Position numbers and translations under genes: made by a program. The notes below the pieces were generated by a model. It had not been told where the DNA came from, made no database searches, and saw only the letters and a program-made list of their open reading frames with translations. Positions 11,489 through 55,541 of a stretch of 64,000 bases of DNA are shown piece after piece (the first letter of the stretch is position 1; each line of letters starts with the position of its first letter). The stretch lies in NCBI GenBank assembly GCA_000002445.1, contig AE017150.2:608001-672000 (forward strand). Direction: 5' to 3'. Source of the DNA: Trypanosoma brucei. Lineage: Eukaryota.

Positions 11489-12136
11489 TTACACCATTTC
11501 CACTCTCCTTGGATATCCCTGAACCCTCATTTGATGTTGTTGTTGTGTCAGCAGGCACCCCAAAATCATCTCTTGGAGGGCCAGCCAAGCCCCGGGAACA
11601 AAACGAGGATCCCATAACAACAATAACAACGGAAGGAAGCAGGCAGCCGCTATGACCACTGTGTTCACGAGACTTTCCTGAAGTCCATAGTGTTGAAGAA
11701 CCATGAACCGATTCGCAAACACGGCGCACCACGGGCAGCAGAAGACTTCCGTGCCCATACAACATTTTTCGAACCCATGACAAACACAGCATGAGCACTG
11801 GCCACACATACCACCAAAGCAGGTGTATTGTTGAAAGTCGCTTAGTAGTAGCGCTTCCCGTTGCGCATAGGCACAAAATATGGTACCAGCACAGGAACCC
11901 AAGCAAAAGCAGCAATCTTTACAAGGGGCGGTGATCATTCCTGTTTCCCACTCATTTTCGGACCCCGGCGCACCCGACGCTCCATCACCAAACCCTTGGC
12001 CGGGAGGAACGTACGTTGACTTGGGAGGTTGGGGATATCCCTGGCCTGGTTTTGAAATGTCAACTTCACCCACTACAGGTGCCATTTCAGTTTCCCTTCC
12101 CCCACTTGGGTAGCTTTGGGCGGGGTTTTCAGACAT
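11489..12136 (-). CDS. PLAC8-family (FW2.2/CNR-like) Cys-rich protein of about 215 aa, with a Pro/Gly-rich N-terminus and a hydrophobic C-terminal extension.
   Basis: Signature Cys clusters: WETGMITAPCKDCCFCLGSCAGTIFC and CCMGTEVFCCPWCAVFANR. Compare human PLAC8 ...WQTGMCDCFSDCGVCLCGTFCF... and CCPHCTLCQ. The track start at 12169 is GTG, so I reset it to the first ATG at 12136 (MSENPAQ...). Confidence 0.7.
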   Translation of the reverse strand: MSENPAQSYPSGGRETEMAPVVGEVDISKPGQGYPQPPKSTYVPPGQGFGDGASGAPGSENEWETGMITAPCKDCCFCLGSCAGTIFCAYAQREALLLSDFQQYTCFGGMCGQCSCCVCHGFEKCCMGTEVFCCPWCAVFANRFMVLQHYGLQESLVNTVVIAAACFLPLLLLLWDPRFVPGAWLALQEMILGCLLTQQQHQMRVQGYPRRVEMV

Positions 12137-23649: not shown

Positions 23650-24471
23650 TTATTCATACCGCACCCACCCCTGCACTGTGACATTATCCTTTTCACGTAC
23701 GGTACATGCCGTGCCATTGGGATTACATGACAAGTTAAGCACACGCGAGTAATTATGATACGGGCCTGGCCATGCTGTGTTTTCCCAGTTCTGTTCCGCT
23801 ACAAACATACGATCCCCTGTCACACCCGCAACAACGGCAACATGACCGTATGGAAAACCATTGGGTTGCCGTGGGTAAATCAACAAATCCCCCACACGCG
23901 GCTTAGAGTTTGCAGATGTTGCATTTCCGTTATGATATTTGAGTAATGGTTTCCGCTTTTGACCATTGAGCAGTTGAACATCTTTAAGATCCCAAATGTC
24001 AGCTGCTCCATCTACAGAACCAAAAGTGGCTGGTTGTGGTGTACCTCGAAGCATCCAATACCGTCGGGCATATTCCACGCATTGCCATTGCATACCATAT
24101 ATGGGTGGAACCGCATGAGGGTCCACACGACCAGCCGGTATCCGTATGTCTTCCACCTTGACAGTGTTCCAAAGTTCTGCTGTGCAACTATCACTGTTGC
24201 AATTGCTCATAGCTGGAACTCCGTTGTAAATTCCCAACACATTACCAAAAGGGGCCGAGCAATTCTGTTGGCAGCCCACTGAAAGACTCCCAGTGTTTGT
24301 ACTCACCGTATCTTTACTATTTTCCGCGCGAGGGACCTTCATAAGGCAGAGAATGATGACAACTCCCACAGCAAATGAGGCGCCTGCGTAAAGCTTATAT
24401 GAGTCGAAGTTTCTTGCCTCACCCTCACGTTGTAAAAGAGGTCTGGCGGTGCCTGCTTTCCTCGCCGCCAT
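23650..24471 (-). CDS. CHAP-domain protein (Cys/His amidohydrolase, like the glutathionylspermidine/trypanothione-synthetase amidase domain), 273 aa, with an N-terminal signal anchor.
   Basis: Catalytic-Cys motif QCVEYARRYW (compare Gsp/TryS amidase QCVEFARRF/W...). Catalytic-His motif GHVAVVAGVTGDRMFVAEQNW (compare GHVAIIT....IAEQN). Hydrophobic segment ASFAVGVVIILCLMKV near the N-terminus. N-glycosylation sequons (NGT, NYS, NLS, NVT) occur in the catalytic half. Confidence 0.8.
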   Translation of the reverse strand: MAARKAGTARPLLQREGEARNFDSYKLYAGASFAVGVVIILCLMKVPRAENSKDTVSTNTGSLSVGCQQNCSAPFGNVLGIYNGVPAMSNCNSDSCTAELWNTVKVEDIRIPAGRVDPHAVPPIYGMQWQCVEYARRYWMLRGTPQPATFGSVDGAADIWDLKDVQLLNGQKRKPLLKYHNGNATSANSKPRVGDLLIYPRQPNGFPYGHVAVVAGVTGDRMFVAEQNWENTAWPGPYHNYSRVLNLSCNPNGTACTVREKDNVTVQGWVRYE

Positions 24472-25648: not shown

Positions 25649-26491
25649 TTATTCATACCGCACCCACCCCTGCACTGTGACATTATCCTTTTCACGTACG
25701 GTACATGCCGTGCCATTGGGATTACATGACAAGTTAAGCACACGCGAGTAATTATGATACGGGCCTGGCCATGCTGCGTTTTCCCAGTTCTGTTCCGCTA
25801 CAAACATACGATCCCCTGTCACACCCGCAACAACGGCAACATGACCGCATGGAAAGCCGTTGGGTTGCCGTGGGTAAATCAACAAATCCCCCACACGCGG
25901 CTTAGAGTTTGCAGATGTTGCATTTCCGTTATGATATTTGAGTAATGGTTTCCGCTTTTGACCATTGAGCAGTTGAACATCTTTAAGATCCCAAATGTCA
26001 GCTGCTCCATCTACAGAACCAAAAGTGGCTGGTTGTGGTGTACCTCGAAGCATCCAATACCGTCGGGCATATTCCACGCATTGCCACTTTAAGCCGCTTT
26101 GGTAACTGGTTCCAGCCACTGTGACGTTGTTATACGTAGTGGTATTCTCTGTTGCACCACAGTTGCTGTAAGAGAAGACGCCCTCATGTGCGCCAAGAAT
26201 AGCACCGACTGGATTGAGGCAATGTTTTTCCACTTTGCCGCTGCCTTCGGGGTAGCGAATGCCAGAGTAAAGCACGCCAAAGGCAATGAAAGAAATAAAA
26301 AGAAGAACGAGTACGCCAAATGTCCAAGCGAATATCGCCTGGGCAATTGAGCATAGGCGTTTTATACCACGCTTCCGGTTGTTGAAAGAACCATTAATGG
26401 CTCCATCATTGGTTTCTGGGACATCGTGAGGATCTTTTTCGTTAGATGAAAGTCGATTAGTCTTCGATGTTACCGCTGGCTCTCTTTCCAT
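25649..26491 (-). CDS. CHAP-domain protein, paralog 2 (280 aa). It has a longer cytoplasmic N-terminus and a different TM anchor and stalk. Its C-terminal ~154 aa are identical to the paralog except for 2 residues.
   Basis: Same catalytic motifs (QCVEYARRYW and GHVAVVAG). TM segment AIFAWTFGVLVLLFISFIAFGVL. Nucleotide identity with 23628-24085 extends about 10 bp past the stop codon. Confidence 0.8.
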   Translation of the reverse strand: MEREPAVTSKTNRLSSNEKDPHDVPETNDGAINGSFNNRKRGIKRLCSIAQAIFAWTFGVLVLLFISFIAFGVLYSGIRYPEGSGKVEKHCLNPVGAILGAHEGVFSYSNCGATENTTTYNNVTVAGTSYQSGLKWQCVEYARRYWMLRGTPQPATFGSVDGAADIWDLKDVQLLNGQKRKPLLKYHNGNATSANSKPRVGDLLIYPRQPNGFPCGHVAVVAGVTGDRMFVAEQNWENAAWPGPYHNYSRVLNLSCNPNGTACTVREKDNVTVQGWVRYE

Positions 26492-27581: not shown

Positions 27582-28727
27582 TCACTGTTCAGCACCATCC
27601 ACCACCTTCTCAGTTTCCTCCTTGTCCTCATGAACTTCCCCAACTGGCGTTGTTCCGAGGGCCCGCTTCGCCAGCAGTTGCTTCTGAACCTCCTCAGGCA
27701 GTTGGCGAAACCAGTAATCAAGAATGCCTTTAGAGAACCTAACAATATGAGGTGGAAAACCATCAGATAGGAATTGGCCCACAGCCACCCCAATCTTGGT
27801 GCCTATAAGTTGTTTCAGGGTAACGTTTGCACTCGCCAAGGAGGAAAGTAAGGAAACAATACGTTCCTCGTTTGCGATGCTAACCTCAACAACGTCACCG
27901 TTCAGACATTCCATGTACGTCTCTGTAAGTTCCTTCCCTGTAGTTTCTAAAGTTGCGTTCGTCACATCATGACGGCTCTTGCGCAGCATATCCACAACAT
28001 AAGCCACGTCGTCGTCTGCAGATGCGGCAGATCCTTCCCTTCCCACAGTGTCGTACGTTGCATTAGGGAGGTCTCTACCATCTTCACGGCCTCGTTTCCT
28101 TTCGGTACGTTTGCCGTACTCATCATCACTGGAGCCACCAGCCAACTCGGACTCGGAGCTGTCGCCACCAAAGTCCCTCAGAGTCTTGATTTTTCGCTTT
28201 TTTCTGTGGCGCTGCCCACTTTCCTCACTTTTTGTCTCCTTCCTTGAGATGTGATGACGTCCTTCGTCTTCTTTCCGCCTCTCTTCCACATGCTTTGATG
28301 CACCTCTTCTTAACGATAGTTTCCGTCGTTGCGGTGCTTCAACCGCTTTTTGCTCTCCGCCGTCGGCGAATTCCGTTTTTACACCTCTAACCCTCCGTTC
28401 ATTTGTTCCTCCAGCTTGTGCCTTGAGTTGTTCTTCATATAGTTGTATCGCCTCTTCGATTGCGACCGCGCAGCTCGCGTCTAACTTTCCTTCTTCCATC
28501 ATTCCCTCATCTCGATCCGGAAGAAAATATCTAATTTGCCCCTCATCTTCGCTGTTGGCGGCTGAGAGAGTGAGGGAATCGCGAGGAAGACAACAAACCC
28601 ACACGTCTGACCCCTCAGGCAGTGTTATGTCCCTGACCTCGTCGGGGTCCATGACAAAACCCGGCCACCAGGGGAATCGATCCTGTTTCAACCACACAAG
28701 GGTCCCTGGAGCAAATGATGGAATCAT
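27582..28727 (-). CDS. PWWP-domain protein (382 aa from the first ATG) with a C-terminal TFIIS N-terminal-type (TND/LW) domain and no TFIIS domains II/III or Zn ribbon.
   Basis: PWWP motif VWLKQDRFPWWPGFV near the N-terminus. The C-terminal segment SLASANVTLKQLIGTKIGVAVGQFLS parallels LASVSVTLRQLLRTKIGVSVSRALS of the neighbouring TFIIS paralog. The ORF-track start at 28787 is GTG. The first ATG (MIPSFAPG...) is at 28727. Confidence 0.7.
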   Translation of the reverse strand: MIPSFAPGTLVWLKQDRFPWWPGFVMDPDEVRDITLPEGSDVWVCCLPRDSLTLSAANSEDEGQIRYFLPDRDEGMMEEGKLDASCAVAIEEAIQLYEEQLKAQAGGTNERRVRGVKTEFADGGEQKAVEAPQRRKLSLRRGASKHVEERRKEDEGRHHISRKETKSEESGQRHRKKRKIKTLRDFGGDSSESELAGGSSDDEYGKRTERKRGREDGRDLPNATYDTVGREGSAASADDDVAYVVDMLRKSRHDVTNATLETTGKELTETYMECLNGDVVEVSIANEERIVSLLSSLASANVTLKQLIGTKIGVAVGQFLSDGFPPHIVRFSKGILDYWFRQLPEEVQKQLLAKRALGTTPVGEVHEDKEETEKVVDGAEQ

Positions 28728-30765
28728 TTTTTTTCTTTTCCCCCCGTGGCTGGATGGGTTCAAAATGATGTCCCGACTGGTGTGCACATGTTTTTTTTAC
28801 CCGGTAATTGTAATATATGTAATGTATATATAAATATATATACGTATACGTGGTGGTGTGTGTGTGTGGGAGGGGGGGGGGAGGTGAGTAAAGTATGAGA
28901 GGAAAAAAAGAAAAAGAAAAGGAGAAAGAACAGAGGAGTTGAGAGACACTGACTTGTGAAAAGTAAACTCAAATAAAGCAGGATGGGACCAGGAACTGGA
29001 AAACGTGCAGGGGTAAAGGGAGTTAATGTACTGCTCCACCTCGTTATTACGCCCTTGTTGTTATTTTCCGTTTAGTTTATTTATTTGTAGGGGGACAAAC
29101 AAAACAACGTGCTATAGGGAGGGTGGAGATTTCCACCGGTCTACAGTAGTGTGACAACAAATCGCACGGATATAAGTAGAAAAAAAAACTAAAGAAAATG
29201 AAAGAAAGCTCGCAAGGGTGGAGATTTTTAGAAATACGGTAATAGCATTGTTGGCTTTTCTTTTTCTCTTAACCTCTTGTTTGATGTACAAACACTCGTG
29301 GGGGTTCATTTACCTTTTGAATTCTTTCTGTATTTCCCCTTCAATGCGTGCTAATATATTTAAGAATATATTTCAATTGAAGAAGTATTCTTTCTCAGAA
29401 TCCACTCCACCATCCCCCACCTTTGGCTTCGGCTTTGGTCTCGTCTTTCTTTTTTTTTTTTTTGTAGCCTTCATGTATTTACATATTCCCTTCACTCGGA
29501 CGCTTGATCTGGCCTTTTTTTTCTTTACGTTTTACTCTACTTCCCCTTTTAAAATTCTTTGCAAATCAATATGTTGCTTCCGGCTCCCTCTTCGTCTCTT
29601 CCTCTTTTTTTTCCGTTATTTCTCTTTCAATGTTATAAAAGGAAATAAAAAATTCACAAGGCGACTCCACCGTCGACATGATGTACTGAAACACGTAGAC
29701 ATCTGAAGATAAGGAATAATAATAGTAATAATAAAGGCGAAGAGTAAAACACACGCACACACACAAAGCCCAAGGGAAGAGGAAAAAAAAAGGTATAAAT
29801 CAATACATACATTTTATGTGTGTACATGCCACACGTAAAATAAAGAAAGAAAGTAAAAGCAAAAACGTGCATTTGGTGCGGCGGCAAATGGGAACAACAA
29901 AAACAACAAAAGAAAATTGCGTAAAGGATACTCGTGGGGGCTTCGCTGTACGGGGGCAGAAGGAAACCCAGTGGCATGAAACTAATATATATATATATAT
30001 AATTAATTAATTATTTATTTATTATATTTCCTTCAAAGTTTCCCCCTCTGGCGTTTCAATCTTGCTTTTGGTTCTTATCCCCATTCTCATTTTCACTCTC
30101 CTCGCTTTCATTTTCCCCTTTTCTTCTCTTCTCTTTTTTTTCCTTTTCAAATTTAAGCTTGCTTTTGTCTCTTGAACTTAGCCGAAGATACGTTACCGTA
30201 AATAATCGCCTGAAAAAGATGTTAAAAAGCAAATTCTTCTTTCCGTCCTTTTTTTTTTTGAAAAATAAAACAAGCACATCCCTGTTGACTTCTTTTCCCT
30301 TCACTTCTCTTTTAGACCGCATAAAGTAACTCCTCTTCCGTTGGGCGTAAAACAGAATATGAAGAGAAAAAAAAAAGAAGGTGAAGGTGAAGGTAAAGGA
30401 AGAAACAGGGTACTCAAGAAAAAAAAAACGCAAAAAAAAACTACAAAAGCAAAATCAACGGCAAAGCAGTGTTTTTCCTTTTTTTTGATTCCTTCACCGC
30501 ATTTCACATTCTCTTCTGGTGACAAACTGAGGCTCAGGCTCCACCATAAGAGAATATGAAAAAAAACATACAAGAAAAAAGAAAAAAATAGTAACGGTAG
30601 ATAAGTAAGTGACGCCAAGTGAATTAATACATATATCCTGATCGGCATTAATTTACTTGGCATTATTCGTTAAACAGCACGTGTGCTCATAAAAAAAGAA
30701 AAAGAAAGAAAAACATCGGTGCAAGATAAGTAAGGACAAATGCAATGATACGCACGGTAGTGACA

Positions 30766-31613
30766 AGAAGAGAATTCAACTGTAAGAATAAAGAAGAAAA
30801 TTGCTTCGTGCCATATTGAATGATTTTCCATTTCCATCTCTTCTTCTTACAGTTGAATTCTCTTCTCTTTTTTTTCTTTTCCTTTTTTTTTTAAACATAA
30901 AAGTTACGTCATCATTACGACCATCACCCTTCATCTGATAAAGTTTCTGGCGTCTTTTTTTTCCCCCTTCTGTGCGTCCCATTTTACCACCTCACCTACT
31001 GTTTCACGATATGGTGAGATTCTACATTTTCATATCGTATCATATTTCATATTTCCTTTATTGCCTCACATATAAATACAAAAATATGTTAATACAAATA
31101 TATAAACATATGTTTGTTTATGCATTTATTGTATGACATCACAAACACTTGTGACTAACAACAACCACGACTACAAGAAGAATAACAGCAACTACAACAA
31201 AAAAAATGCCAGAAACTTTATCAGATGAGCCGTGATGGTCTTTTTTTTTCTTTTTTCTGGTGACCTAACGCCAATTTCCCCCACCATTTTGTTACCCCTT
31301 CCCCCACCCTTATAAATTAATATATAAATATATATCTATATCTATATATTTGTATTAAAAAATGTATTTTATACATATTTATGCGTAAGCTTTCCGTGTT
31401 CATCCGTACAAACCACCACAGACATATATAGATAGATAGATAGATCATGTTTCAATTGATCGCGCAAGAGGAACATAAATTGTAGGCAACAATGAAAGTA
31501 GGGATTTAATGGTTATAAGTGAATTAATAACCAAATAAATGAAAACCATATGAATAAATATGTATAAAATACATTTTTAAATACAAATATATATATTTAT
31601 TTATAAGGGTGGC
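30766..31613. repeat. Cluster of three inverted-repeat pairs within a 4.7-kb spacer. IR-A is a 23-bp perfect IR (30766-30788 and 30844-30866). IR-B is a 33-bp IR at about 91% identity (30919-30951 and 31208-31240, spacer about 256 bp). IR-C is an imperfect IR of about 65-80 bp (31303-31382 and 31549-31613, spacer about 165 bp containing (GATA)n).
   Basis: Reverse-complement matches checked by hand. Examples: agaagagaattcaactgtaagaa with ttcttacagttgaattctcttct; gaccatcacccttcatctgataaagtttctggc with gccagaaactttatcagatgagccgtgatggtc; tttgtattaaaaaatgtattttatacatatttat with ataaatatgtataaaatacatttttaaatacaaa. Confidence 0.85.
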
Positions 31614-33497
31614 GCACATGGCTCAGAAGAGGCAAGTGAAGGAATGCCTCAAATGTACAACAAAAGGCCGACGTTGGGTGAATTGCGGGAGGAAAAACAA
31701 AAAAAAGGTTGAAAAGCGTAGAGACGATCAAAGCAGTTGGGTGACCATAAAGGCAAGAAAAAGTATATCATTAAATGATGTGCACAGTCAGACACACACA
31801 CACACACACACACGCATGTGGACAGATGCATATATAAATATAAATAAATAAATAAATATATATATATATATATACAAAGGTAAACATACATGTCCGTACA
31901 ACAATAATGATAGTGTTTATGATAATAATTAGTAATATCATAAAGGGAATCACCTCCAGCAACAATAATAAAAGGGGGAAGTGATACTGAAATTTGTGGT
32001 GGTAGCAAAGATGGTAAGTAACAAAAACAGCAACAATAAAAGTAACGATGCCGACCGCCTTCGACGTTATGAAATTGTGCCGAAAGTTACGAAGCAAATA
32101 AGAGCATTGCGCCACAGTGGTTAAAAATAAGTGAAAAAAAAAGGAAGAAAGCAGAGATACGGTGCGAGCTGAATAAATATATTAATATATTAATATATAT
32201 ATATATATATTAATTAACTATATGACGGTCCATTCGAGAAAAATATACTTTCCTATTGTATTTATTTAATACACATTGAGACGCAAATGTACCATTTCTG
32301 TTATTTCTCTCCTTTCTTCTCTCAGTTTTTTAAAAATCCTGTCATTTTCTCCGTCCCCCTCCCCCCTCCTCTTCTTTTTTCCTTTCCGCACAGTAAACCT
32401 TCACGATTTCAAATAAATTGTGCATGTCGAAAAAAAAAACCAGCAAAATATAAATGGAAATGGGGCCGCCCGTAGTGCTGAGTTTTCTATATGACACAAA
32501 TGTTTCTTCCCCTCATTTCCATTAAAAAAAATTTTTTTCCCACCCTTCCCGCAAAGACTCGGCCCTCTCTCTTTTTCTTTTTCTCATTTATTCGAACTAT
32601 TTCACATTTCCCTCCGGTTGCTCACTCGCTTGCACCATTCTAGTGATGACTGTTTATTTATTTATAATAATTTTTTTTTAATTACAAAAAAAAACATTTA
32701 TTTATGTATATTTTAAAAAGGCTTTTGAAGGGGGCCGTCACAAATGATCAATGCAGTTTTCCCTTTTTTTTTAAAAAAAATCACTAAACAAAGGCAGAAA
32801 AACATTATTTTTTTTTTCCCCACTCGGTCCAGTAACTCCTCAATAAAAGTTCAGACGGATGGGGGCACACACTTTTCAACCGAGGAAAGTGAGTAGGGTT
32901 GGGGTTAGGGTTAGGAGGAGACAACCAAAAACAAAACTAAACAGGACAAAGGATCTTACAACTGAAAAAGAATAATACAAAACAAAACAATAACCGTGGC
33001 AAAAAGAATTATCCAAAACCTACAAGCACATAATTGTGAAGGACAGGGGGAAAAAAAAAGGAAACAAACGAACAAAGACAAAGCACAGAAAAGGCTCACA
33101 TTTGTTTCCCCCCTCCCTCATATCGGTCAAAGAATCGTTTCCATCTATTCGGCGACACCTTTCCTCCCAAACAGGTTGCGCCCCCTTTTTTTTTTCTTCC
33201 CCCCCTCCGCCCCCCTTTTTTTTTAAATACTTTCCCCTCCCCCGGAGTACAAAGCTGTTTTCACATTTTGCAATCTCCTTGTCTTCTTTTTTCTCGTTTT
33301 CGTAGATTTTACCTATTAAATTCACGAGTATTCGCACCTTTTTTTCTTTTCTTTTCTTTCCCCTCCCCTCTGCTCCGTGCCCCACCACCAATTTTGTGTT
33401 TGTTGTAACCATTTTAAATACAAGGTCCATATGGAACTGATTATGGCGAAGCGTCACATGATTAACATAACATTAATATGGCGACCTCCATCGGCAA

Positions 33498-34901
33498 CTA
33501 ATTCTCTGACCAATTATGTTTGCACTTAATGCACTTAATAAATTTAGTTGTCGGTTCATCCGCTGACCGGATCTGTAGTTCTCTCCATTCACATTCCCTT
33601 CCGTGACACTCCGGGCATTCAAAAAGTGAGGTGGTATGCAACAGCGACCGCTCGGTTTCTTCCAAGTTTCTTAGTTTCTCCGTAGTTCGGCGCTCTGCGT
33701 CCTCTTTTTCCTCTTGCGTCATTAGTTCCCAGCGACTGAGTTCGAGAAAATCCTTTCCACTCAGCTCCCCCATCGCCAGCCTGCGCCGTATTTCTGATAA
33801 CCCCGGTTTACTCAAATGCTCCAAAAGATACATGCGGTCCTCCGATCTTGTTACCTCAGCGCATATTTTTTCCGCTACAGATCTGAGATCATCACTTCTA
33901 ACACTAAAACTATGCGGATCCCCCGGTTGGAGAAGCAGCTTCTGCACCCGGTCAACAAACTGTGGTTGTGCCCCTCCTCCAATAGTAATTGGGTTGCCCA
34001 CGCTTTCACTTGTTGACGGTGTTGCCACATCCCGTTCCTCCCTCGTTTGTGAACTGGAAATGGTTCCCCGTCTTTTGTTATGGCGTGCACCGCCGCTCCG
34101 CGCCGTCCCCCCTCTTTTTTTGGCTTCCTGCTCGTACTTGTTGTACTCTTCAATTGCTCTCACAGTTTCCTCCGGTAGTTTGGCTGTCCAAGCGGAGATG
34201 ATACAAGTAGCCAGGCTCCTTTGTTCTTCTAGATCCTTTTTTGACAAGGCCCTTGAAACCGACACACCAATTTTTGTGCGCAAAAGCTGCCGGAGTGTAA
34301 CACTGACGCTCGCAAGTTTCAGAAGCGTGCTGGTAAGCAGAGCCCCGTCGCAGTTATCAGTGGCTTCATCAATATCTTTTTTCCATTGCACCAGTGCGTC
34401 GTCCGATGCGGGGGATAAGTGAGAGCCGGTACTCCTCTGTCGCATCCGGCTCACCTCACGGCTGCGTTTGCCCCCTGCAGTTTGCTGAGTGGCATTGTTA
34501 AGCGAACCCGCTCGCCCGCTTGTCGAAAACGCCCTCTGTGATGTTCCCCTCGGCGCCGTATTTTTTGAATGAGTCGGCTCAAATCGCAATGCGTTGGACT
34601 CCTTGTCCTCCTCTGCGTTACGAATAGCTTGCAGAAGATCCTCATTGGCGGTGACGGCTTTCTCAGATGAGGGCTCAAAAAATGTAATGGCGGAGGAGTG
34701 GCTGTCAACATTTTTATAGGTGGCCTTATTTTGGGTTCCTGGATACGTGAGAACGGTAACCGTAGATGTGCCAGTTTCTGACGACCTTCCGTCAACTCCC
34801 TCCACACCGGTAACTGAAGTGACTTTTGCCGGCCACCACGTGTTAGCTCCAGTCTTTAGCCAGACACGGTCGTTAATATGAAATACTCTTTCTTGAAGCA
34901 T
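33498..34901 (-). CDS. TFIIS2-2: Transcription elongation factor TFIIS paralog with an N-terminal PWWP domain (467 aa). The architecture matches the PWWP-containing trypanosome TFIIS2-2.
   Basis: N-terminal RVWLKTGANTWWPAKV (PWWP). Central TFIIS-N domain. Acidic-loop/domain III region. C-terminal Zn ribbon CPECHGRECEWRELQIRSADEPTTKFIKCIKCKHNW, with the canonical RSADEP motif and four Cys. ATG checked. Confidence 0.85.
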   Translation of the reverse strand: MLQERVFHINDRVWLKTGANTWWPAKVTSVTGVEGVDGRSSETGTSTVTVLTYPGTQNKATYKNVDSHSSAITFFEPSSEKAVTANEDLLQAIRNAEEDKESNALRFEPTHSKNTAPRGTSQRAFSTSGRAGSLNNATQQTAGGKRSREVSRMRQRSTGSHLSPASDDALVQWKKDIDEATDNCDGALLTSTLLKLASVSVTLRQLLRTKIGVSVSRALSKKDLEEQRSLATCIISAWTAKLPEETVRAIEEYNKYEQEAKKRGGTARSGGARHNKRRGTISSSQTREERDVATPSTSESVGNPITIGGGAQPQFVDRVQKLLLQPGDPHSFSVRSDDLRSVAEKICAEVTRSEDRMYLLEHLSKPGLSEIRRRLAMGELSGKDFLELSRWELMTQEEKEDAERRTTEKLRNLEETERSLLHTTSLFECPECHGRECEWRELQIRSADEPTTKFIKCIKCKHNWSEN

Positions 34902-38501: not shown

Positions 38502-40919
38502 CTACGTTTCTTTATGTTTCAACCTCTTCGCCAAGAGTGACCCTTCCCGAGGGCCAATGAGATTAGTCACCGTTCCAATGCCTTTTGTCCGTCCCTCTCT
38601 GAAAATAAGCTGTTGCCCAACTTTCATGAACTCCGGTCGGTATAAGAAGTGAAATCGCACAAGTGACCGGTCACCTGTGCGCAGAACCTCTTTTTCCACA
38701 AATACAATTCGTGCTGATTGCCGCACTGTGGTGGAATGAATGACTGGCTCATAGTTCACAAGGATGGTGGTAGAATGATAGAGAATAACAACATCGGCCT
38801 CAAACTGCCAGTACGCCTCTACTGGATGCTTAGGATCTGTGAGTATATTTCCCTTGCGGATTCCCCGACGCTTCTCCTTCTTGAGGCAAAAGGATGCATC
38901 GCAACCGGCTACTGCACGCTGCTGCTCCACTCCCTTAACGTGGATTGATTTAATTTGTACGGTACGGAATCCACCACTGGCATCTGGCCCTAATAGCACA
39001 GCATCATTGACATTAAAGACACCCTGCGTGACGATTCCACCTACAACTGTTCCCACGCCCGCCACAAAAAATGTGCTGTCGATCACCATCTCACGTGGGA
39101 GCTGGCGAGCGTTACGCCAATCCTTCCGCATTGGTAAAAGGTTTAAAAATCGCACTAATGATTGTAGACCCTCGCCACTGACGTTGCTAATTTCAAAGAT
39201 GGGCGTGATGCGGTCGTTTCGAAGATTCTTAGCGGAAAGCACTACGTCATCTACACGACGCACGGGGTACGGCAGCTTTCTGACAGTGGGGACCTTGAGC
39301 AATTTGTGAACACTGGCAAGCGTCTCCTGCCGGATGTTTTCCGGTGTGGAGTCTATACGCGTGATAACGACAAAGAAAGGAATCTTCAAAGCAAGGCATA
39401 AAGCTACGTGCTCCTTTGTCATACGTTGGATACCGTTATTGGCGCTGATGACGACACAGGCATAATCGGGAATGTTACGCGTCATGCCAAGAACGGTCGT
39501 TTTCAAGTACCGCTCGTGTCCAGCGAGGTCATAAAGAGTAAGGACTTTTGAACTCTTTGCCGCAACCTCCTGCCCGAGCTGGTGTGAGTTAATGGTAACA
39601 GGTTTATTACCAATAGGACCATCACCACCACCACCACCACCGCCGCCGTCATTGGGAGTCTCCTCACCAAGACTTACACCGCCTAGAGAGTGCTTAGCAC
39701 CTGCAACCACGTAATTCACCACTTCACCTGCTTCCGAGAAGCCCAAGTGGTTTTCACTCACGCTAGAAGTACGACCCGTCGCGGCCTCGTGCTTGTGTTT
39801 GAAAACAAACGCCCGCGCAGACCCACGACCATTATCGCGACAACCACGTGTCAGTACCGAAGTAAGCGTAGATTTACCGCTATCGACATTCCCACACATC
39901 GCAATACGCATTTCAATATGCTGCTCAACGGATGCACCCTGGCGCACCAGAAACTCCTGCGCAAATACCTTTGTTTTGGTGCCACTGTTACTTGTTTGCA
40001 CTTCACGGGGTTCAGCTAATACGGGTGAGCAACCAACTCCAATACGTGCCGCAGAAGCCTTGAGCTCCCAAACGCGCTTCTGAAATTCTTCCATAGTTGT
40101 TCCCGATATGACAATGAAGCACTCACCTTGTCCTTCCTCCACACGTCCGGCGACAGCGGAGTCACTCAGATCTTCCACACCAATAACATTATTACCGCTC
40201 CCACCATCACCGGTACCATTCTGTGAACCCTTCTCTTTTTGAGTTACAGTAACTTTGTCTACCCTTCGGGATGCGGCTGCGTCAATACGAGTGGGATCGA
40301 CGTGCTCCGATGGGCCGCAAGCTGACTGCAATTTCTTGCGGAGGCTGCACACTACAGCATCAAGAGTTTCTACGAGTTTTTCATTACTCTTCTTGGCGTT
40401 CAACGCTTGAAGAACAATATGAACATTTGAACCTATCAGAGAAGGCAGCTTTTGCTTGCCGTCACTCCCGCTATTGTTAGCCTTATCCGCATTTACCTGA
40501 GGATCACTAGCTTGTTTGTTTGTTTCATCTGCCAACTCCCGGAGCCGAGCAAATTCCGCTTTCGCTGACTCACTCTGGCCGTCCCAAAACAGTGCTACAA
40601 CAAGAACTCGCATGGACGTCATCGGAACGCCATGTTTGCCGCTGTGATGAAACTCATTCAACACCCTGGTCAGGGCGTTTTGAAAGCATCCATTTCCCTC
40701 ACTCCCTCCAGATGCGGCGCGTCCGTTGCTGTTGCTGTTGTTGTTGTTGCTGCTGCTTTTACCACAGGCTTCACTGACGTTATAAAGCATTGCGTGCACC
40801 ACTGGGGGCATGAGATGCTTCTCCGCAACTTCCTTCAACCACTGCCCAACCGTCATGGCTTCAGGCTCCGATAGCACGAGGAAGAGAGCGGCTTCCCTGT
40901 CATGTGATCCGTCAGCCAT
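38502..40919 (-). CDS. GTPBP1/GTPBP2-like translational GTPase (EF-Tu superfamily), 805 aa. It has a long low-complexity N-terminal extension with poly-Asn/Ser and Gly9 tracts.
   Basis: G1 motif MCGNVDSGKSTLTSVLTRG. G3 motif DLAGHERYLKTTVLGMT, characteristic of GTPBP1 (compare DLAGHEKYLKTTVFGM). Downstream beta-barrel domains are typical of the EF-Tu family. Confidence 0.8.
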   Translation of the reverse strand: MADGSHDREAALFLVLSEPEAMTVGQWLKEVAEKHLMPPVVHAMLYNVSEACGKSSSNNNNSNSNGRAASGGSEGNGCFQNALTRVLNEFHHSGKHGVPMTSMRVLVVALFWDGQSESAKAEFARLRELADETNKQASDPQVNADKANNSGSDGKQKLPSLIGSNVHIVLQALNAKKSNEKLVETLDAVVCSLRKKLQSACGPSEHVDPTRIDAAASRRVDKVTVTQKEKGSQNGTGDGGSGNNVIGVEDLSDSAVAGRVEEGQGECFIVISGTTMEEFQKRVWELKASAARIGVGCSPVLAEPREVQTSNSGTKTKVFAQEFLVRQGASVEQHIEMRIAMCGNVDSGKSTLTSVLTRGCRDNGRGSARAFVFKHKHEAATGRTSSVSENHLGFSEAGEVVNYVVAGAKHSLGGVSLGEETPNDGGGGGGGGDGPIGNKPVTINSHQLGQEVAAKSSKVLTLYDLAGHERYLKTTVLGMTRNIPDYACVVISANNGIQRMTKEHVALCLALKIPFFVVITRIDSTPENIRQETLASVHKLLKVPTVRKLPYPVRRVDDVVLSAKNLRNDRITPIFEISNVSGEGLQSLVRFLNLLPMRKDWRNARQLPREMVIDSTFFVAGVGTVVGGIVTQGVFNVNDAVLLGPDASGGFRTVQIKSIHVKGVEQQRAVAGCDASFCLKKEKRRGIRKGNILTDPKHPVEAYWQFEADVVILYHSTTILVNYEPVIHSTTVRQSARIVFVEKEVLRTGDRSLVRFHFLYRPEFMKVGQQLIFREGRTKGIGTVTNLIGPREGSLLAKRLKHKET

Positions 40920-42278: not shown

Positions 42279-45200
42279 CTAAGCTTTTCCCCCATATGGT
42301 GTAGCAAAACTCAGCGCCTTCACCTTGCCGCTTCCGTAACCAATTAAAAACGCCGGTTCACCCCATTGCTGCTGCTGCATTGCCGTTACAGACCCAAGAT
42401 TGGCTTGACAACTACCATCAACAATAATCGCATGGTGCGTCACACTAACGATGTTACCGTGTGTGACCCCATCAGGCGGCAGACGGACTGCCCGCCACAG
42501 CGAAATACTGCCATCCTCATGCCCAGTTAGCAAAAGCTGCGTGCCGTATGCCCACTCCAATGTATTGTACGGAGTCACAGCAGTTATAGCCGCGGTGCAT
42601 GATCCATCAAAACTGTGCACTGCTCCATGCAACTTTCCATTGCCCTGCATTGGTGTTTTAGTACCCTCCGTCGCAGAGAGAGAACCAACTCCGTAGCGAT
42701 CACCGTTGGAATCGAATATTAACAAATGACGTCGTGTAACCACAATAGTGTTTGAAGTCAGAGGGTCGATTACGGAAGCTACCACACGTGAGTCATCTTC
42801 ATCGACAAAAAGGTGACCAAGGGCGTGCACCACGTTAAGGCGGTGTAACATTACGACCCGTTCCTGCTGGACACACCAAACAATGGGGGCGTCATTTCCA
42901 CTAACTGTGAAGCTAACCATTCGGCCGTACTTCGTGTCAATAGTGAGTCCTGCAATGGCGTGCATGTGATGACACAGCGTTGAGCTCAATGTCAACACTC
43001 CACTGTCCATGCTAGGCCTGAGACAATATATTGTGCCAGTTGTGGAACCAACAGCCACCAAAGTCTCCCGACAACATACGCAGGTACAGCTTATATTCGC
43101 GGACGGCTCCAGTAGAGTTGAGTATCGCATTGTTGAAAGAAGATCTCCACCTTTCAGGTCAATGTATATCATAGTATCTGCACCTAAGTCGAAGCAAATT
43201 AGATAATCTTCGTCATCCACAGGTATGAGGTACCTATAGCAACAAGCTATTTCTCCGCTACGCGTGGTGGCGAAACCAACGACAGGCTCCCGCTGAGTGT
43301 TGCAGAATGCCACAGCAGCGACTGGGAGTGTCATTAGGCTTCCAGGAGTGAGGTCCTTCAGGGTGAACCTTGACTGGCGCCCAGCAGCAACAAACTCCAT
43401 CATCAAGTGTACTTTCGGGCTAGGGTCTCGAGCACCATGCAACTTTGAAGTTACTGTTCGCGAGGCAAAACTGCTGGTGGATGCAATAGAGTTGTTGCAA
43501 GCAAAAGAGGAGTTACTACCAGCAGTGTTCGTGCTGTTTTTGTAGCGATGGTCACCCTTCTTTGCTGTGCTGGAGGTACTCACGACTGTGAAAATGCCAC
43601 TACTCAAGCTCGCAGTGGGATTACTTTCACTTGACCCGCTGACGAGCAGGCGCAAGTCGCTTTGTGGGGGATGGTGCTCCTGGAACAACTGCATGGGCGT
43701 TTGTCCGAAGTTGTCAACCTCCGCAACAATTACGTCGATGTCACGTGAGTTTTGGCTTTCTTTCAGCGCCTTCACAACCTCTTCACCGTACGTCATGCGC
43801 TGAAAGACGTTATGGCAGTCCACCGCCAGCTTTCCTCGCCGACAAACACCGAAAACAAGATCGATCCAATGGTGGATTGAGTGCGCAACGCGGTCGCTCT
43901 CCAGTATGTACCGCATCACCGCAGTGAAAACTTGTGCAGAGTCCTTTGCCCACGGCGGAAGCTTCACATCATCCACGGCAGTCCCGTCGGACTTTGTACC
44001 AAAGTTACAACGATTCATATTCACGAGGAACGAGCCGTCCAAAAAGAACTCAGGAGTTAGCTCCTTACAATCCGCCGGCCCATTAACACACGATTGGAAT
44101 GAACCATCGATCGTGTCAAATAGTCGAGAAGCAACATCGAAATCCCCTCCTTGAAAGATACGAGCAAATGTTGTAAAGGGCTCCATGCGAATGAGATAAT
44201 AAAGTACCCCACCGCTGGTGGAGTAATGCGTACCGTGGTGAAAGGGCTGCGTTAGTTCCATTGCGGCAACACCGCCATCGCCAAGTTGTTGTGCTACCTC
44301 CATCATTTGTTGGTATAAATCCTCTACACTTCTGCGCCGCTCCTTTGTTTGTGCCCCCATTGGTCGGGACAAGTCACGATACGTCGAATCCGAGCTGAGA
44401 TCAAGTGTAGAAGATCTGTAGTCCGCAATAACCCAAGGGAAAATGGGGTATTGGTTGTAGTCGAGAATTGTACGGCCTGCGGCGCGGTTGAGGAAAAATA
44501 GGTACTCGAACGTAGAAACAGACCTCCCACCCCAACCTGCCAGCATGTTGCGCATATTTGAGATGCGTTTGCCATGGTCGTGAATGGTACACCGTTGTGT
44601 GCCGATGACTTCCTGTAGCACCTCAAGAAACTCGTCGCGGGCACGAGTGTTCATCGACTGTCGTGGATCCACGAGCGAAAGCATGAGCCCGTCACTGTAC
44701 ATAACGTCGAGAAAAATGGCAGTGTCCTGGTGCATGTAGAGTCCTACTCGTATGCTTCGAATGTTTCTAACTAGGTAACACCAGTAGAGACTTTTGCACG
44801 GATGTCCTGTTGCTTGCCTAACGGATTGAGCCACTTTCGTGCCATCTTCGTGCTCTTCGTGTTCTCGCCGCCGCCGTCCCTTAGTTCCCCCATCTGTGAG
44901 GAACCGTTGCAGTTTGTTCGTCATAGATACTGCAAAACCTCGTGTGGTATTGTGAGACCGCTGCTTTTGACCCTTCTGCACACCTCCTTCGCCCCCACGT
45001 GAGGAGGCGTTCACTTCATCAGTTTCCTCATCGCAGTCTCCGCCAAGGTTATTGCTGCCGTTGCCCTCATAGTCGTACAGGAACACATCGCCCTTTTCAG
45101 TAATGCGCGAGAAGGAAAAAACCTTCACTGCCACATTTGTCACTAGAATGAGACACGGCGCCACATGTATGCCGTTGACACGGAACCCATTACTGATGTA

Positions 45201-48200
45201 ACGCAACACCTCATTCGGTTCTAGGAGATGCTGCAGAAGAACCGCAGCGGAGGACGTTACCTTGCATCGTGGATCAATGAAAGGAACTGAACCGCAATCC
45301 ACATACGGGCGACACCGAACCGCGACAGGTGGGATAAGGGCAGAAATGTGGCAGACCTGCGGCTCGCAGCTGCTGGTGTTGAGTATAGTGATGTGATCCT
45401 CGGCAGAGACACCCTTCATATCATCTGATTCAGCATTCGCAAAAAATGTACTCGCAGTCAATATTGTGGACCGCTTGTGCCTAGAATCGATACGAAAAGC
45501 TTCACTCAAATGAGAGTCACCACGACTAAGTGAACTACGCGGCACTGCTAGCCAGTGTAGCTGTGCGGGTTGTAAGCGTGCAATGGAACCGACTCGTGAA
45601 GAGAACCGCCCATTATATGCCTGCACCAATACTGCGACACTATACCCATTCGACAATTTCGCGGTAGAATTGTAGCTCTCGTTGAACAAGCGCATCTGGT
45701 TAACATAAAATGACCGTTTCTTCAAAAAATGATTCACTGCTAACTCCACTTTCATTTTAAGCCGCCCCGACATAACCGCCTTCAGTTTGGAGGTATTACT
45801 ACTAATGTAAACGTCGAACGCCACGATAGCATTCGTCTCATCTTGCGAAAGTAATGCAGACACAAAGCCTTCGTAGATCGAGACTCGTGAAGCAAGTGAG
45901 TTCACGGTGACAGCTTTCTTTAGGTCCTTGCTTCCTTGGTAAACGAGTGCGATGCGCCGAAGGCACAATGTGATGACCTCTTTGCGCTTTCTGCTGTCCG
46001 GATTCATTGTGTCCTTGGATGATGGATCGTCGTAAACGCGCATCAAACTTCCGATCAAGCACGCCATCAACGGTTTCATAGGCCACGGTGAGTCTAGTAC
46101 ATGGGTAAGCATAGTGTGTATCAGCCCCATCTCCTCTAGACTCATTTCACTTACCGGCTTTCGATTAATGGCCGCGACACAAATCTTAACTATCTGCAGG
46201 CGAATTTCCAGCAAGTCTGAAAGATTCCAAGACACCCTCGCATACAGCAGGAGACGCACAAAGTATGGGGCAATGGTTGAGAGCTCAACTACATGAAAGG
46301 AGAGAAGATCCACCAGAAGATCATTGAAGGCACAGACATTGAAAGCGAATATATTCGAAATGATGCCCGCGTACGCTATGCCTCCATTCATTTCATTTTC
46401 CATGGGAACGCTGGCCGCGCACTCGTCGACCCTCTGTCCATTGTCAGCAAGCGACTCAGTTGATCTTGACAATGGTAACGATGACTTCATCCGCCCACCC
46501 GTTTCGGGGGGCAGCTGTAGTGCAGATTGCGTCTTGGGGCTTTTGCGTGTGGCGACCAGCTCCAGCACCTGATGCATGAAAAAATTGATGAGCACTGATG
46601 CCCCTTCTTCCTCGTTTGCCATGGTACCGGTGATTAGTATCAGCTGGAAAAGTAGATAACCGCAAGCACCATAGGAATAAGGATTAGCCGGCGCTGTCCT
46701 CGCGGGCATCGCTTGCAGCGACGATGCAACGATGTTGCTCAAAATGTCCACGGCAGGTTCCAGCAGAGAAGCAAGGGAATGCGATTGAAGGACATCCGGC
46801 CTCACAACAGATCCTATCGTCTCCGCCAATAGCAAATCCTCATTCCCTTCTTCCTCTTCTAGTTCACACCCATCCCTCTCCTCGAAACCAGTAAAACCCC
46901 TTGCAAACGGAGAAAAGCGTGTTTTTCTGATATCCAGCGACCGCACACTCTCAAAAGGATCGCTAATAAGCGTAGGCGGAGCGGCGTCACTTCTTTCGAG
47001 TGTTGATACTACGGTTCCGGACTGAGGCACATCATCGTGAGTATGAGTAGACTCAGATAACTCAGGAAGGTTTGTCAAAGGCAACGAAGGTGACATGTGG
47101 CACGGTAGAGCCACGTTCTCGACCTCACCGATACCGCTGAGCACATTCTCCTGGGGTGTTGGGGGCACTTTCCTTATTCCGCTTTCCATGGAAGAAGATG
47201 ACCTGCAGCACTTGCCATTCTGCGTTTGGCAATCGTCTCCCTCGACAGATTCCTCGTATGCATCATCTTCATAAGCGTTGTCCTCGCTATCAGCGTACAG
47301 TGGTGTTTTCAAATCAAGAATGCCAAAAATACTGTCTGCAGCAGAACCCTTCTTTCCATCGGTATCCACTTCCTGTTTTTGTAATGCCGAAGTTTCCACG
47401 GCCCCCCTTAACCTCATTATTTCCCGGCAGCCGAAGTCGTGCATGGCGGATGCGAGCTCCCCACTTTTTGCCATTACATCCTCCTTCCGCAGAAACGATC
47501 CGAAAAAAGCAAGCGTCGCCACCTGAAACGGAGATCGCGTCATGAGAGCAAAAGCATTTGGTTGCATAGATATCTGCAACAATGTTTTCAGTATAAATAG
47601 TGTTCCACACATTTCCTCCTTTTGGGCTCTTCCTCTTGCTCCTCCTCCGTCGATCAGAAGGAAAGGGATGTCATTTCTGAGCAGTCGTGCGTACCGTGAA
47701 CGCTGCACGCGGCGCCAAATGTAAGTGGCGATGCCAACAACAATGAACGATGGTCGATGCCACAAACTCCTTGTCACTACCGGCAAAGAGGAATCCTTTG
47801 CCTGCGCCCAATGCTCGCTTGCACCTCCCGCAGCTTCTGGAAGATGTGTGTTACTCGAATCCCTTGAAAGCGTGGGGTTCCACCAGAGCGACGAGCAAGC
47901 GTCAGGGACAGCACCTGTTGGGCGATGCGATAGTCGTTTCACATAAATGCCTAACATCAACCGCGAGCACACCACGGCAAGGTGAAGGTACTTAAACAGT
48001 CGAAAGGAGCGAAGGAGGCGACGGCCCCCCACCTGTGATATAGGCCCCGGACGAAAGAGAAGGGGTCGTGTCAACGACGCACTCAAATGAAGCATTAGCA
48101 ACCTGAAGAAAATTGGAGTTATGGCCGTGTCAGAATCGTGTAATGACGAACCCAGGGCGCTATCCAGCTGCAAATGCAGGGACTTGCTTGAGTGGAGTAA

Positions 48201-55361: not shown

Positions 55362-55363
<2 letters not shown>

Positions 55364-55433
<70 letters not shown>

Positions 55434-55442
55434 TTTTTCCCC
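55364..55442. repeat. (CT)n dinucleotide microsatellite of about 31 units, immediately followed by a T17 homopolymer.
   Basis: Read directly: ctctctctct...ctctcttttttttttttttttt. Confidence 0.95.
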
Positions 55443-55509
55443 CTCTCCTTCACCTGTTGTTATAATAAACAAAAATAAATGGTAGGTAACTATAGAAATA
55501 TATATATAT

Positions 55510-55541
<32 letters not shown>

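What the first reader, a model, noticed from the sequence alone, without database searches (positions are those of the whole stretch)
27582..34901. LEDGF-like architecture: a PWWP reader fused to a TFIIS N-terminal-type domain, next to the PWWP-TFIIS paralog
Two neighbouring - strand genes are clearly paralogous. Both have an N-terminal PWWP motif (FPWWPGFV and NTWWPAKV). Both have a TFIIS N-terminal (TND/LW) domain (TLKQLIGTKIGVAVGQFLS and TLRQLLRTKIGVSVSRALS). Only the downstream gene carries TFIIS domains II/III and the RSADEP Zn ribbon, so only it can stimulate RNA pol II transcript cleavage. The upstream protein is therefore a chromatin reader joined to an elongation-factor docking module. 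In domain logic this is the same pairing as metazoan LEDGF/HRP2 (PWWP plus IBD), where the IBD is itself a TFIIS-N-like fold. In an organism with polycistronic pol II transcription and few defined promoters, such a protein could tether elongation or termination machinery to marked chromatin. It could alternatively compete with the full TFIIS paralog for the same partners.
Basis: partly seen in the sequence, partly recalled or inferred. Interest (0 to 1): 0.7.

Follow-up and report, generated by a model that had tools for sequence, protein, structure and literature searches.

The report
Known trypanosome TFIIS2-1/TFIIS2-2 gene pair

Summary
Two minus-strand genes, 27582..28727 (381 aa) and 33498..34901 (467 aa), both encode an N-terminal PWWP domain and a TFIIS N-terminal (TND/LW) domain. 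Only the longer one has TFIIS domain II and the RSADEP zinc ribbon.

The window is T. brucei chromosome 2. The genes are TbTFIIS2-2 (Tb927.2.3480) and TbTFIIS2-1 (Tb927.2.3580), described as adjacent paralogs in 2008. Solved structures match all four N-terminal domains essentially exactly, including a TFIIS2-2 TND complex with TbLeo1 (7FAX).

Reviews report that the TFIIS2-2 PWWP binds H4K17me3 and H3K32me3 in vitro. Published ChIP-seq places TFIIS2-2 at Pol II termination regions next to Pol III genes. Published pull-downs recover PAF1C, Pol II and TFIIS2-1.

The short gene is not a pseudogene. No frameshifted remnant of domains II/III lies downstream. T. congolense and T. vivax orthologs share the same short form. 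T. cruzi and Novymonas orthologs keep a ribbon with a mutated catalytic loop.

The LEDGF comparison is a fair analogy of domain logic, not family membership. The "competitor" alternative is disfavoured because the two paralogs co-purify.

Verdict: interpretation supported, already known, low interest.

The parts
27582..28727 (-). TbTFIIS2-2 (Tb927.2.3480) coding sequence, 381 aa plus stop; PWWP-linker-TND, no TFIIS domains II/III
   Evidence: ORF. 98% identical to the T. b. gambiense 'PWWP domain-containing' protein. Residues 1-110 and 235-359 are identical to PDB 2NAS and 7XGW over the aligned stretches. Gene ID from the Staneva supplement.
28404..28727 (-). TFIIS2-2 PWWP domain (aa 1-108)
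   Evidence: Pfam PWWP E 1.6e-9. PDB 2NAS is identical over aa 1-110. AF2 model pLDDT about 90, five strands plus helices. F18 and W21 occupy two canonical cage positions.
28023..28403 (-). Basic/acidic disordered linker (aa 109-235) with NLS-like RKKRK at aa 175
   Evidence: pLDDT below 50 over most of it. 34 K/R and 26 D/E in 127 aa. Three of the six substitutions versus T. b. gambiense fall inside it (172, 195, 217), and two more at the adjoining PWWP C-terminal boundary, aa 107-108.
27654..28022 (-). TFIIS2-2 TND / LW domain (aa 236-358), seven helices
   Evidence: Pfam Med26 PF08711, 22.8 bits against a 20.6 cutoff. PDB 7XGW (apo) and 7FAX (complex with TbLeo1); model against 7FAX gives TM 0.97, rmsd 0.7 A.
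27585..27653 (-). Short acidic disordered tail (aa 359-381), followed by the stop codon at 27582..27584
   Evidence: pLDDT about 36. All three frames downstream of the stop are full of stop codons and show no similarity to TFIIS domains II/III.
28728..33497 (-). 4.8-kb AT-rich spacer between the two genes. Most of it is reported as the long 3' UTR of TFIIS2-1. A polypyrimidine tract at about 28880-28950 lies upstream of the TFIIS2-2 ATG.
   Evidence: GC 0.33 at 30-32 kb. Sequence. Uzureau 2008 reports the neighbour 4.8 kb downstream and a 3' UTR of at least about 3.5 kb. Only simple AT/CT repeats are present.
33498..34901 (-). TbTFIIS2-1 (Tb927.2.3580) coding sequence, 467 aa plus stop; PWWP-TND-domain II-Zn ribbon
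   Evidence: ORF, Pfam, PDB 2M1H and 9JVB. Residues 165-465 align to human TCEA1 residues 3-302, E 2.1e-16.
34569..34901 (-). TFIIS2-1 PWWP domain (aa 1-111); Asn20 sits where the first cage aromatic is expected
   Evidence: PDB 2M1H matches aa 1-111. Alignment. Reviews report no methyl-histone or DNA binding.
34098..34424 (-). TFIIS2-1 TND / LW domain (aa 160-268)
   Evidence: PDB 9JVB E 4.3e-64. Pfam Med26 E 2.3e-5.
33510..33623 (-). TFIIS2-1 domain III zinc ribbon (aa 427-464) with intact CxxC...CxxC and the RSADEP acidic loop
   Evidence: Pfam Zn_ribbon_TFIIS E 1.4e-16. Sequence.

Best explanation
The region holds the T. brucei chromosome 2 tandem pair TFIIS2-1 (a full PWWP-TFIIS) and TFIIS2-2 (PWWP plus TND only).

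Proposed mechanism. TFIIS2-2 is an adaptor. Its PWWP domain contacts methylated histone tails (H4K17me3 and H3K32me3 in vitro). Its TFIIS-type TND binds a short motif in LEO1. It thereby joins PAF1C, and with it Pol II and the catalytically competent paralog TFIIS2-1. It accumulates at Pol II termination regions that coincide with Pol III genes.

Origin. TFIIS2-2 arose by duplication of a PWWP-TFIIS gene. The catalytic acidic loop was mutated in trypanosomatids generally. Domains II and III were then lost entirely in African (salivarian) trypanosomes.

Shown: domain folds, the LEO1 complex, peptide binding, ChIP-seq localisation, co-purification, the truncation and its phylogenetic spread.

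Inferred: that PWWP reading drives the localisation in vivo, and that the complex acts in elongation or termination at those sites.
For: - Domain calls and paralogy.
- Identity to solved T. brucei structures 2NAS, 7XGW, 7FAX, 2M1H and 9JVB.
- The 7FAX title names a TbLeo1-LW complex; model against 7FAX gives TM 0.97.
- Gene names and adjacency: PMC2610381.
- H4K17me3 and H3K32me3 binding by the TFIIS2-2 PWWP, and none by the TFIIS2-1 PWWP: PMC8638923 and PMC7468196.
- Nuclear localisation, ChIP-seq peaks at termination regions with Pol III genes, and a PAF1C/Pol II interaction: PMC8559703.
- IP table, log2 enrichment: DCNL 14.2, LEO1 14.1, CTR9 13.8, TFIIS2-1 13.7, RTF1L 12.3, CDC73 11.7, SPT6 6.3, RPB2 5.9, RPB1 5.7.
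- The paralogs share no tryptic peptide of 6 aa or more, so the TFIIS2-1 signal is not misassignment.
- The human TFIIS TND binds motifs in LEO1, PAF1 and IWS1: PMC9987994.
- No remnant of domains II/III lies downstream of the stop.
- Short orthologs occur in T. congolense (377 aa) and T. vivax (371 aa). Long orthologs with SVQAHD[NS] in place of RSADEP occur in T. cruzi and Novymonas.
- All six substitutions versus T. b. gambiense lie outside the domain cores.
Against: - Histone-peptide binding is in vitro only, and I know it through reviews, not the primary paper (not held).
- The third canonical cage position (LEDGF F44) aligns to Cys46 by hhalign. The cage is therefore not canonical by sequence.
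- Deleting the PWWP of the paralog TFIIS2-1 did not change its subnuclear pattern.
- No loss-of-function phenotype for TFIIS2-2 was found in the library searched.
- ChIP peaks at Pol III genes could reflect high-occupancy or open chromatin and not mark reading.
Confidence: 0.8

Rival explanations
1. TFIIS2-2 is a natural competitor or dominant-negative. By occupying the LEO1/PAF1C docking site with a TND that carries no cleavage module, it would keep TFIIS2-1 off Pol II at particular sites, for example to favour pausing or termination.
For: The two TNDs are paralogous, 39% identical. Both are of TFIIS type. TFIIS2-2 lacks domains II/III. Its long orthologs carry a mutated acidic loop; from general knowledge of yeast TFIIS D290/E291 mutants, that class of mutation is inhibitory. 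TFIIS2-2 is enriched at termination regions.
Against: TFIIS2-1 is one of the strongest co-purifying proteins in the TFIIS2-2 pull-down, log2 13.7, comparable to the PAF1C subunits. That indicates co-residence, not mutual exclusion. Human LEO1 has two TND-binding motifs, so simultaneous binding is plausible. In T. brucei TFIIS2-2 has no domain III to insert into the Pol II pore, so a classical dominant-negative mechanism is impossible.
Confidence: 0.12
2. The short gene is a decaying remnant, a truncated pseudogene-like copy of TFIIS2-1 with no function of its own.
For: It lacks the catalytic half of TFIIS. The linker is low-complexity. No essential phenotype is on record in the library searched.
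Against: The open frame is intact, with a polypyrimidine tract upstream. The same short architecture is kept in T. congolense and T. vivax. PWWP and TND are conserved across trypanosomatids, with 11 of 12 aligned homologs scoring for each domain. Substitutions versus T. b. gambiense avoid both domain cores. The protein is expressed, nuclear and recovered by mass spectrometry. It forms a specific complex with Leo1 (7FAX).
Confidence: 0.02
3. The PWWP domain is not a methyl-lysine reader in vivo. It would be a nucleosome or protein contact surface, with targeting coming entirely from PAF1C and Pol II. TFIIS2-2 would then be just an accessory PAF1C subunit.
For: The third canonical cage residue is not aromatic by profile alignment. 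W43 of T. brucei is not conserved in orthologs. The TFIIS2-1 PWWP binds nothing and is dispensable for localisation. Peptide binding by isolated PWWP domains is typically weak (general knowledge).
Against: Binding to H4K17me3 and H3K32me3 is reported. The Y/F18 and W21 positions are nearly invariant across orthologs.
Confidence: 0.2

Closest known systems
TbTFIIS2-2 (Tb927.2.3480) and TbTFIIS2-1 (Tb927.2.3580) of Trypanosoma brucei
   Same: These are the same genes. The solved domains match essentially exactly over the aligned stretches (2NAS, 7XGW, 7FAX, 2M1H, 9JVB). Adjacency and spacing match: the neighbour lies 4.8 kb downstream of TFIIS2-1. The domain content is as published.
   Different: Nothing substantive. 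The window differs at six residues from the T. b. gambiense copy.
Metazoan LEDGF/p75 (PSIP1) and HRP2 (HDGFL2)
   Same: The domain logic is the same: an N-terminal PWWP methyl-histone reader, a long charged disordered linker, and a C-terminal TND-fold helical bundle that binds short motifs in elongation factors. The LEDGF IBD is a structural neighbour of the TFIIS2-2 TND (TMt about 0.66). The PWWP domains align at 94.7% hhalign probability.
   Different: The TND here is TFIIS-type (PF08711). Its closest non-self structures are TFIIS domain I from mouse, yeast, human and Arabidopsis. LEDGF's IBD is PF11467 and was not detected by sequence or profile. The partner here is LEO1/PAF1C, not FxGF-motif proteins such as MLL, JPO2, POGZ or IWS1. 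The ChIP pattern is sharp peaks at termination regions, not H3K36me3 gene bodies. The origin is loss of domains II/III from a real TFIIS, so the architecture is convergent.
Canonical TFIIS (yeast Dst1, human TCEA1)
   Same: TFIIS2-1 aligns end to end with TCEA1 and keeps the RSADEP zinc ribbon. Both TNDs are homologous to TFIIS domain I. The TND-LEO1/PAF1C contact is also described for human TFIIS.
   Different: Both trypanosome proteins carry an extra N-terminal PWWP. TFIIS2-2 lacks domains II and III and so cannot stimulate transcript cleavage.
TFIIS2-2 orthologs of T. cruzi, Novymonas esmeraldas and other (unnamed) kinetoplastid-like homologs
   Same: PWWP and TND are conserved. Uzureau 2008 reports that the T. 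cruzi and L. major TFIIS2-2 genes also lie next to TFIIS2-1.
   Different: They keep a roughly 150-200 aa C-terminal part with a CxxC...CxxC ribbon whose acidic loop reads SVQAHD[NS] where TFIIS has RSADEP. The salivarian proteins stop about 20 residues after the TND.

Membership tests
PWWP domain (PF00855) | Profile match above the curated threshold, and a beta-barrel plus helices fold | tested here: met
   TFIIS2-2 scores 38.6 bits against a 25.6 cutoff; PDB 2NAS is identical; Foldseek hits to NSD2/3 and DNMT3A/B PWWP domains. TFIIS2-1 scores 24.1 bits, just under the cutoff, but 2M1H is its solved PWWP.
PWWP domain (PF00855) | Three-residue aromatic cage for methyl-lysine | tested here: inconclusive
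   In TFIIS2-2, F18 and W21 are aromatic at two canonical positions. The position aligned to LEDGF F44 is Cys46. W43 lies nearby but is not conserved in orthologs. In TFIIS2-1, Asn20 replaces the first aromatic. Reviews report that TFIIS2-2 binds peptides and TFIIS2-1 does not.
TFIIS N-terminal domain / TND (PF08711, LW domain) | Profile match above threshold, and a helical-bundle fold shared with TFIIS domain I | tested here: met
   22.8 and 24.6 bits against a 20.6 cutoff. Solved LW structures 7XGW, 7FAX and 9JVB. Nearest non-self folds are 1WJT, 7FAW, 6ZUY and 8H6R.
TFIIS N-terminal domain / TND (PF08711, LW domain) | Binds a short disordered motif of an elongation factor | not testable with these tools
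   The PDB 7FAX title is 'Complex structure of TbLeo1 and LW domain from Trypanosoma brucei'. PAF1C co-purifies. I did not see the interface itself.
Functional TFIIS (transcript-cleavage factor) | Domain II plus a domain III zinc ribbon with the acidic RSADEP loop | tested here: not met
   This row concerns TFIIS2-2. It has no Pfam hit for these domains, no tblastn similarity downstream of the stop in any frame, and the protein ends 23 aa after the TND. For TFIIS2-1 the feature is met: Zn_ribbon_TFIIS E 1.4e-16 with RSADEP present.
LEDGF/HRP2 (HDGF-related) family | HDGF-type PWWP together with an IBD of the LEDGF family (PF11467) | tested here: not met
   LEDGF itself scores PF11467 at E 7.7e-29; TFIIS2-2 does not. 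phmmer against the PDB finds no LEDGF chain at E up to 1. hhalign aligns only the PWWP. The IBD is a more distant fold neighbour than TFIIS domain I. TFIIS2-2 works like LEDGF but is not a member.

The most novel reading that the evidence does not exclude
The two paralogs may have split the functions of an ancestral PWWP-TFIIS and be re-joined on one PAF1C. TFIIS2-2 would keep the working histone reader and TFIIS2-1 would keep the cleavage module; its PWWP lacks the first cage aromatic and reportedly binds nothing. Both TNDs would dock on separate LEO1 motifs.

The near-equal enrichment of TFIIS2-1 and the PAF1C subunits in the TFIIS2-2 pull-down sits in a supplementary table and is not discussed in the main text of that paper. 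It is the main hint. The salivarian-wide loss of the dead domains II/III would fit a protein whose only remaining roles are reading and docking.
Probability: 0.3. Interest if true: 0.4.

Novelty: already known. Interest (0 to 1): 0.1.

Why it matters
Trypanosomes transcribe long polycistronic units with few defined promoters, so how elongation and termination machinery is positioned on chromatin is a real question. A PWWP reader coupled to a PAF1C-docking TND is a plausible positioning device. However, this pair has already been named (2008), solved domain by domain (2013-2025 PDB entries), mapped by ChIP-seq and analysed by pull-down (2021). The scan rediscovers it and reveals nothing new. 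The small additions here are the salivarian-wide extent of the truncation and attention to the strong TFIIS2-1 co-purification.

Tried and rejected
- Frameshifted continuation or pseudogene: tblastn of TFIIS2-1, whole and C-terminal half, against the window at E up to 10 found nothing downstream of the 27582 stop. All three frames there are full of stops. Rejected.
- GTG start at 28787: rejected, because an in-frame stop lies just upstream, this is a eukaryote, and PDB 2NAS starts at the ATG Met.
- Peptide misassignment as the cause of TFIIS2-1 in the TFIIS2-2 pull-down: no shared tryptic peptide of 6 aa or more. Rejected.
- Sequence-level homology of the TND to the LEDGF IBD: not detected by phmmer, Pfam or hhalign. 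Only fold-level similarity exists.
- The exact protein was not on record for context look-up.
- The primary papers on PWWP binding (Biochem J 2019) and on the TFIIS-Paf1C LW structures are not in the library. I recall a 2023 Int J Biol Macromol paper by Gao et al. on conserved TFIIS-Paf1C interactions. That is memory only; the PDB titles are the evidence used.
- The MAFFT alignment of PWWP strands beyond the motif was unreliable for locating the third cage residue.
- Searches for tRNA genes and Rfam families in the window, relevant because TFIIS2-2 binds near Pol III genes, found none.

Full report
**What is in the sequence**

The window has two minus-strand ORFs, at 27582..28727 (381 aa from the ATG) and 33498..34901 (467 aa).

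Pfam results:

| Gene | Domain | E-value | Bits (cutoff) |
|---|---|---|---|
| 27582..28727 | PWWP | 1.6e-9 | 38.6 (25.6) |
| 27582..28727 | Med26 / TFIIS-N, PF08711 | 8.1e-5 | 22.8 (20.6) |
| 33498..34901 | PWWP | 5.2e-5 | 24.1 (25.6) |
| 33498..34901 | Med26 / TFIIS-N, PF08711 | 2.3e-5 | 24.6 (20.6) |
| 33498..34901 | TFIIS_M | 0.0057 | 17.5 (29.2) |
| 33498..34901 | Zn_ribbon_TFIIS | 1.4e-16 | 60.5 (21) |

The two proteins are 39% identical over 62 aa of the TND (E 3e-9) and share the WLK...WWP core of the PWWP.

The only slip is directional. On the minus strand the full TFIIS gene is the 5' one.

**Identity**

The short protein is 98% identical to a T. brucei gambiense protein. The window also carries three tandem ISG65 genes (PF11727, E 1e-101). 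This is T. brucei chromosome 2.

Uzureau et al. 2008 (PMC2610381) named these genes:
- TbTFIIS2-1 (Tb927.2.3580) has PWWP, domain I, domain II and domain III.
- TbTFIIS2-2 (Tb927.2.3480) is its paralog.
- The TFIIS2-2 gene lies directly next to TFIIS2-1 in each of the three trypanosomatid genomes they analysed (T. brucei, T. cruzi, L. major).
- Domain III is absent in T. brucei and mutated in T. cruzi and L. major.
- A neighbour gene lies 4.8 kb downstream of TFIIS2-1, and the TFIIS2-1 3' UTR is at least about 3.5 kb. This matches the 4.8-kb AT-rich spacer at 28728..33497.

**Solved structures**

phmmer against the PDB gave near-exact matches for four domains:

| Protein | Domain | PDB entry | Residues covered |
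|---|---|---|---|
| TFIIS2-2 | PWWP | 2NAS | 1-110 |
| TFIIS2-2 | TND | 7XGW | 235-359 |
| TFIIS2-2 | TND | 7FAX | 250-358 |
| TFIIS2-1 | PWWP | 2M1H | 1-111 |
| TFIIS2-1 | TND | 9JVB | 160-268 |

Foldseek supplied the entry titles. 7FAX is [quoted passage not shown] (released 2022). 7XGW is the apo LW domain.

My AF2 model of the TND superposes on 7FAX at TM 0.97 and rmsd 0.7 A.

The full-length model has two confident domains, residues 1-108 and 236-358. They are joined by a disordered, highly charged linker, and a short disordered acidic tail follows.

**Published function**

[quoted passage not shown] The TFIIS2-1 PWWP binds neither (PMC8638923 and PMC7468196).
- Staneva et al. 2021 (PMC8559703) found YFP-TFIIS2-2 to be nuclear.
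- The same study found ChIP-seq peaks at Pol II termination regions that coincide with Pol III genes.
- It also found association with PAF1C and Pol II.

The supplementary pull-down table ranks the co-purifying proteins as follows:

| Protein | log2 enrichment |
|---|---|
| Tb927.3.5070 (DCNL) | 14.2 |
| LEO1 | 14.1 |
| CTR9 | 13.8 |
| TFIIS2-1 | 13.7 |
| Tb927.7.4030 (RTF1L) | 12.3 |
| CDC73 | 11.7 |
| TFIIS2-2 (bait) | 11.4 |
| SPT6 | 6.3 |
| RPB2 | 5.9 |
| RPB1 | 5.7 |

This is exactly the PAF1C-like set purified with CTR9 in T. brucei and with LEO1 in Leishmania. The human TFIIS TND also binds motifs in LEO1, PAF1 and IWS1 (PMC9987994).

1. The TND scores above threshold and is a solved LW domain.
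2. Aromatic cage:
   - F18 and W21 of TFIIS2-2 match LEDGF Y18 and W21.
   - The position aligned to LEDGF F44 is Cys46 by hhalign.
   - The nearby W43 is not conserved in orthologs.
   - By sequence the cage is therefore non-canonical, although binding is reported.
   - TFIIS2-1 has Asn20 at the first position, which fits its reported lack of binding.
3. Pseudogene:
   - No similarity to domains II/III lies downstream of the stop in any frame.
   - The six differences from T. b. gambiense are at residues 107, 108, 172, 195, 217 and 375, all outside the domain cores.
   - The protein is expressed and recovered by mass spectrometry.

**Evolution**

An exhaustive HMMER search found 37 relatives.
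- The T. congolense (377 aa) and T. vivax (371 aa) orthologs end about 20 residues after the TND, as in T. brucei.
- The T. cruzi (517 aa), Novymonas (591 aa) and other homologs continue into a CxxC...CxxC ribbon. Its loop reads SVQAHD[NS] where TFIIS has RSADEP.
- This suggests inactivation of the catalytic loop early in trypanosomatids, followed by complete loss of domains II/III in the salivarian lineage. It is a small extension of what Uzureau et al. stated.

**Comparison with LEDGF**

I checked my recalled LEDGF/p75 sequence against the PDB, and it matched the 530-aa chain end to end.
- LEDGF scores PWWP plus PF11467. TFIIS2-2 scores PWWP plus PF08711.
- hhalign aligns only the PWWP domains.
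- By fold, the nearest non-self neighbours of the TFIIS2-2 TND are TFIIS domain I from mouse, yeast, human and Arabidopsis. MED26, Elongin A, PPP1R10 and the LEDGF IBD follow at TMt about 0.66.

LEDGF is therefore a sound functional analogy: reader, charged linker, TND. It is not a family assignment. The architecture arose here by domain loss from a genuine TFIIS.

**Competition versus co-assembly**

TFIIS2-1 co-purifies with TFIIS2-2 as strongly as the PAF1C subunits do. The two proteins share no tryptic peptide that could cause misassignment.

A co-assembly model fits better: reader from one paralog, cleavage module from the other, both on PAF1C. It remains untested.

**Verdict**

Interest is low.

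Noticed in passing
window 681..9079 (+): Three tandem ORFs of 436, 436 and 437 aa. The first (681..1991) matches the invariant surface glycoprotein family ISG65-75 (PF11727, E 1.3e-101); the other two were not scanned. This looks like the known ISG65 array of T. brucei chromosome 2.
   Followed up: partly
window about 9100..11500: Convergent strand switch. Plus-strand genes end at 9079 and all later large ORFs are on the minus strand. GC skew changes sign at about 10 kb. No tRNA or Rfam RNA gene occurs here or anywhere else in the window.
   Followed up: partly
window 23650..24471 (-) and 25649..26491 (-): Two neighbouring CHAP-domain (PF05257) proteins, 71% identical overall. Their C-terminal 148 residues or so (from aa 126 of the first copy) differ at only two positions while the N-terminal parts diverge. 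This pattern suggests recent gene conversion.
   Followed up: partly
window 28728..33497: A 4.8-kb AT-rich spacer (GC 0.33 at 30-32 kb) between the two TFIIS2 genes, holding only simple AT/CT repeats. It has been reported as an unusually long 3' UTR of TFIIS2-1.
   Followed up: partly
window 42279..53012 (-): A 3577-aa ORF with a BEACH domain (PF02138, E 1.3e-97), i.e. a neurobeachin/beige-type protein.
   Followed up: no
window 38502..40919 (-): An 805-aa protein with EF-Tu-type GTPase domains 1-3 in its C-terminal half and a long N-terminal extension, an eRF3/HBS1-like architecture.
   Followed up: no
window 54001..56000: The lowest-GC stretch of the window (0.31) with strong AT skew (0.23), lying between the BEACH gene and a ubiquitin-conjugating enzyme gene at 56928..57683.
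   Followed up: no
orthologs P0003, P0009, P0002, P0008, P0010, P0024 (alignment A3): The long TFIIS2-2 homologs share a conserved replacement of the TFIIS acidic loop: SVQAHD[NS] (TVSAHDN in two) where TFIIS has RSADEP. A more distant group (P0011, P0016) has TGSHGEDH. The dead ribbon therefore seems to be under its own constraint outside the salivarian trypanosomes.
   Followed up: partly
PDB hit 9JVD: A third solved LW-type domain, labelled 'Transcription elongation factor-like protein' (111 aa), matches both TNDs weakly (E 4e-4 and 1e-6). Its source protein was not identified.
   Followed up: no
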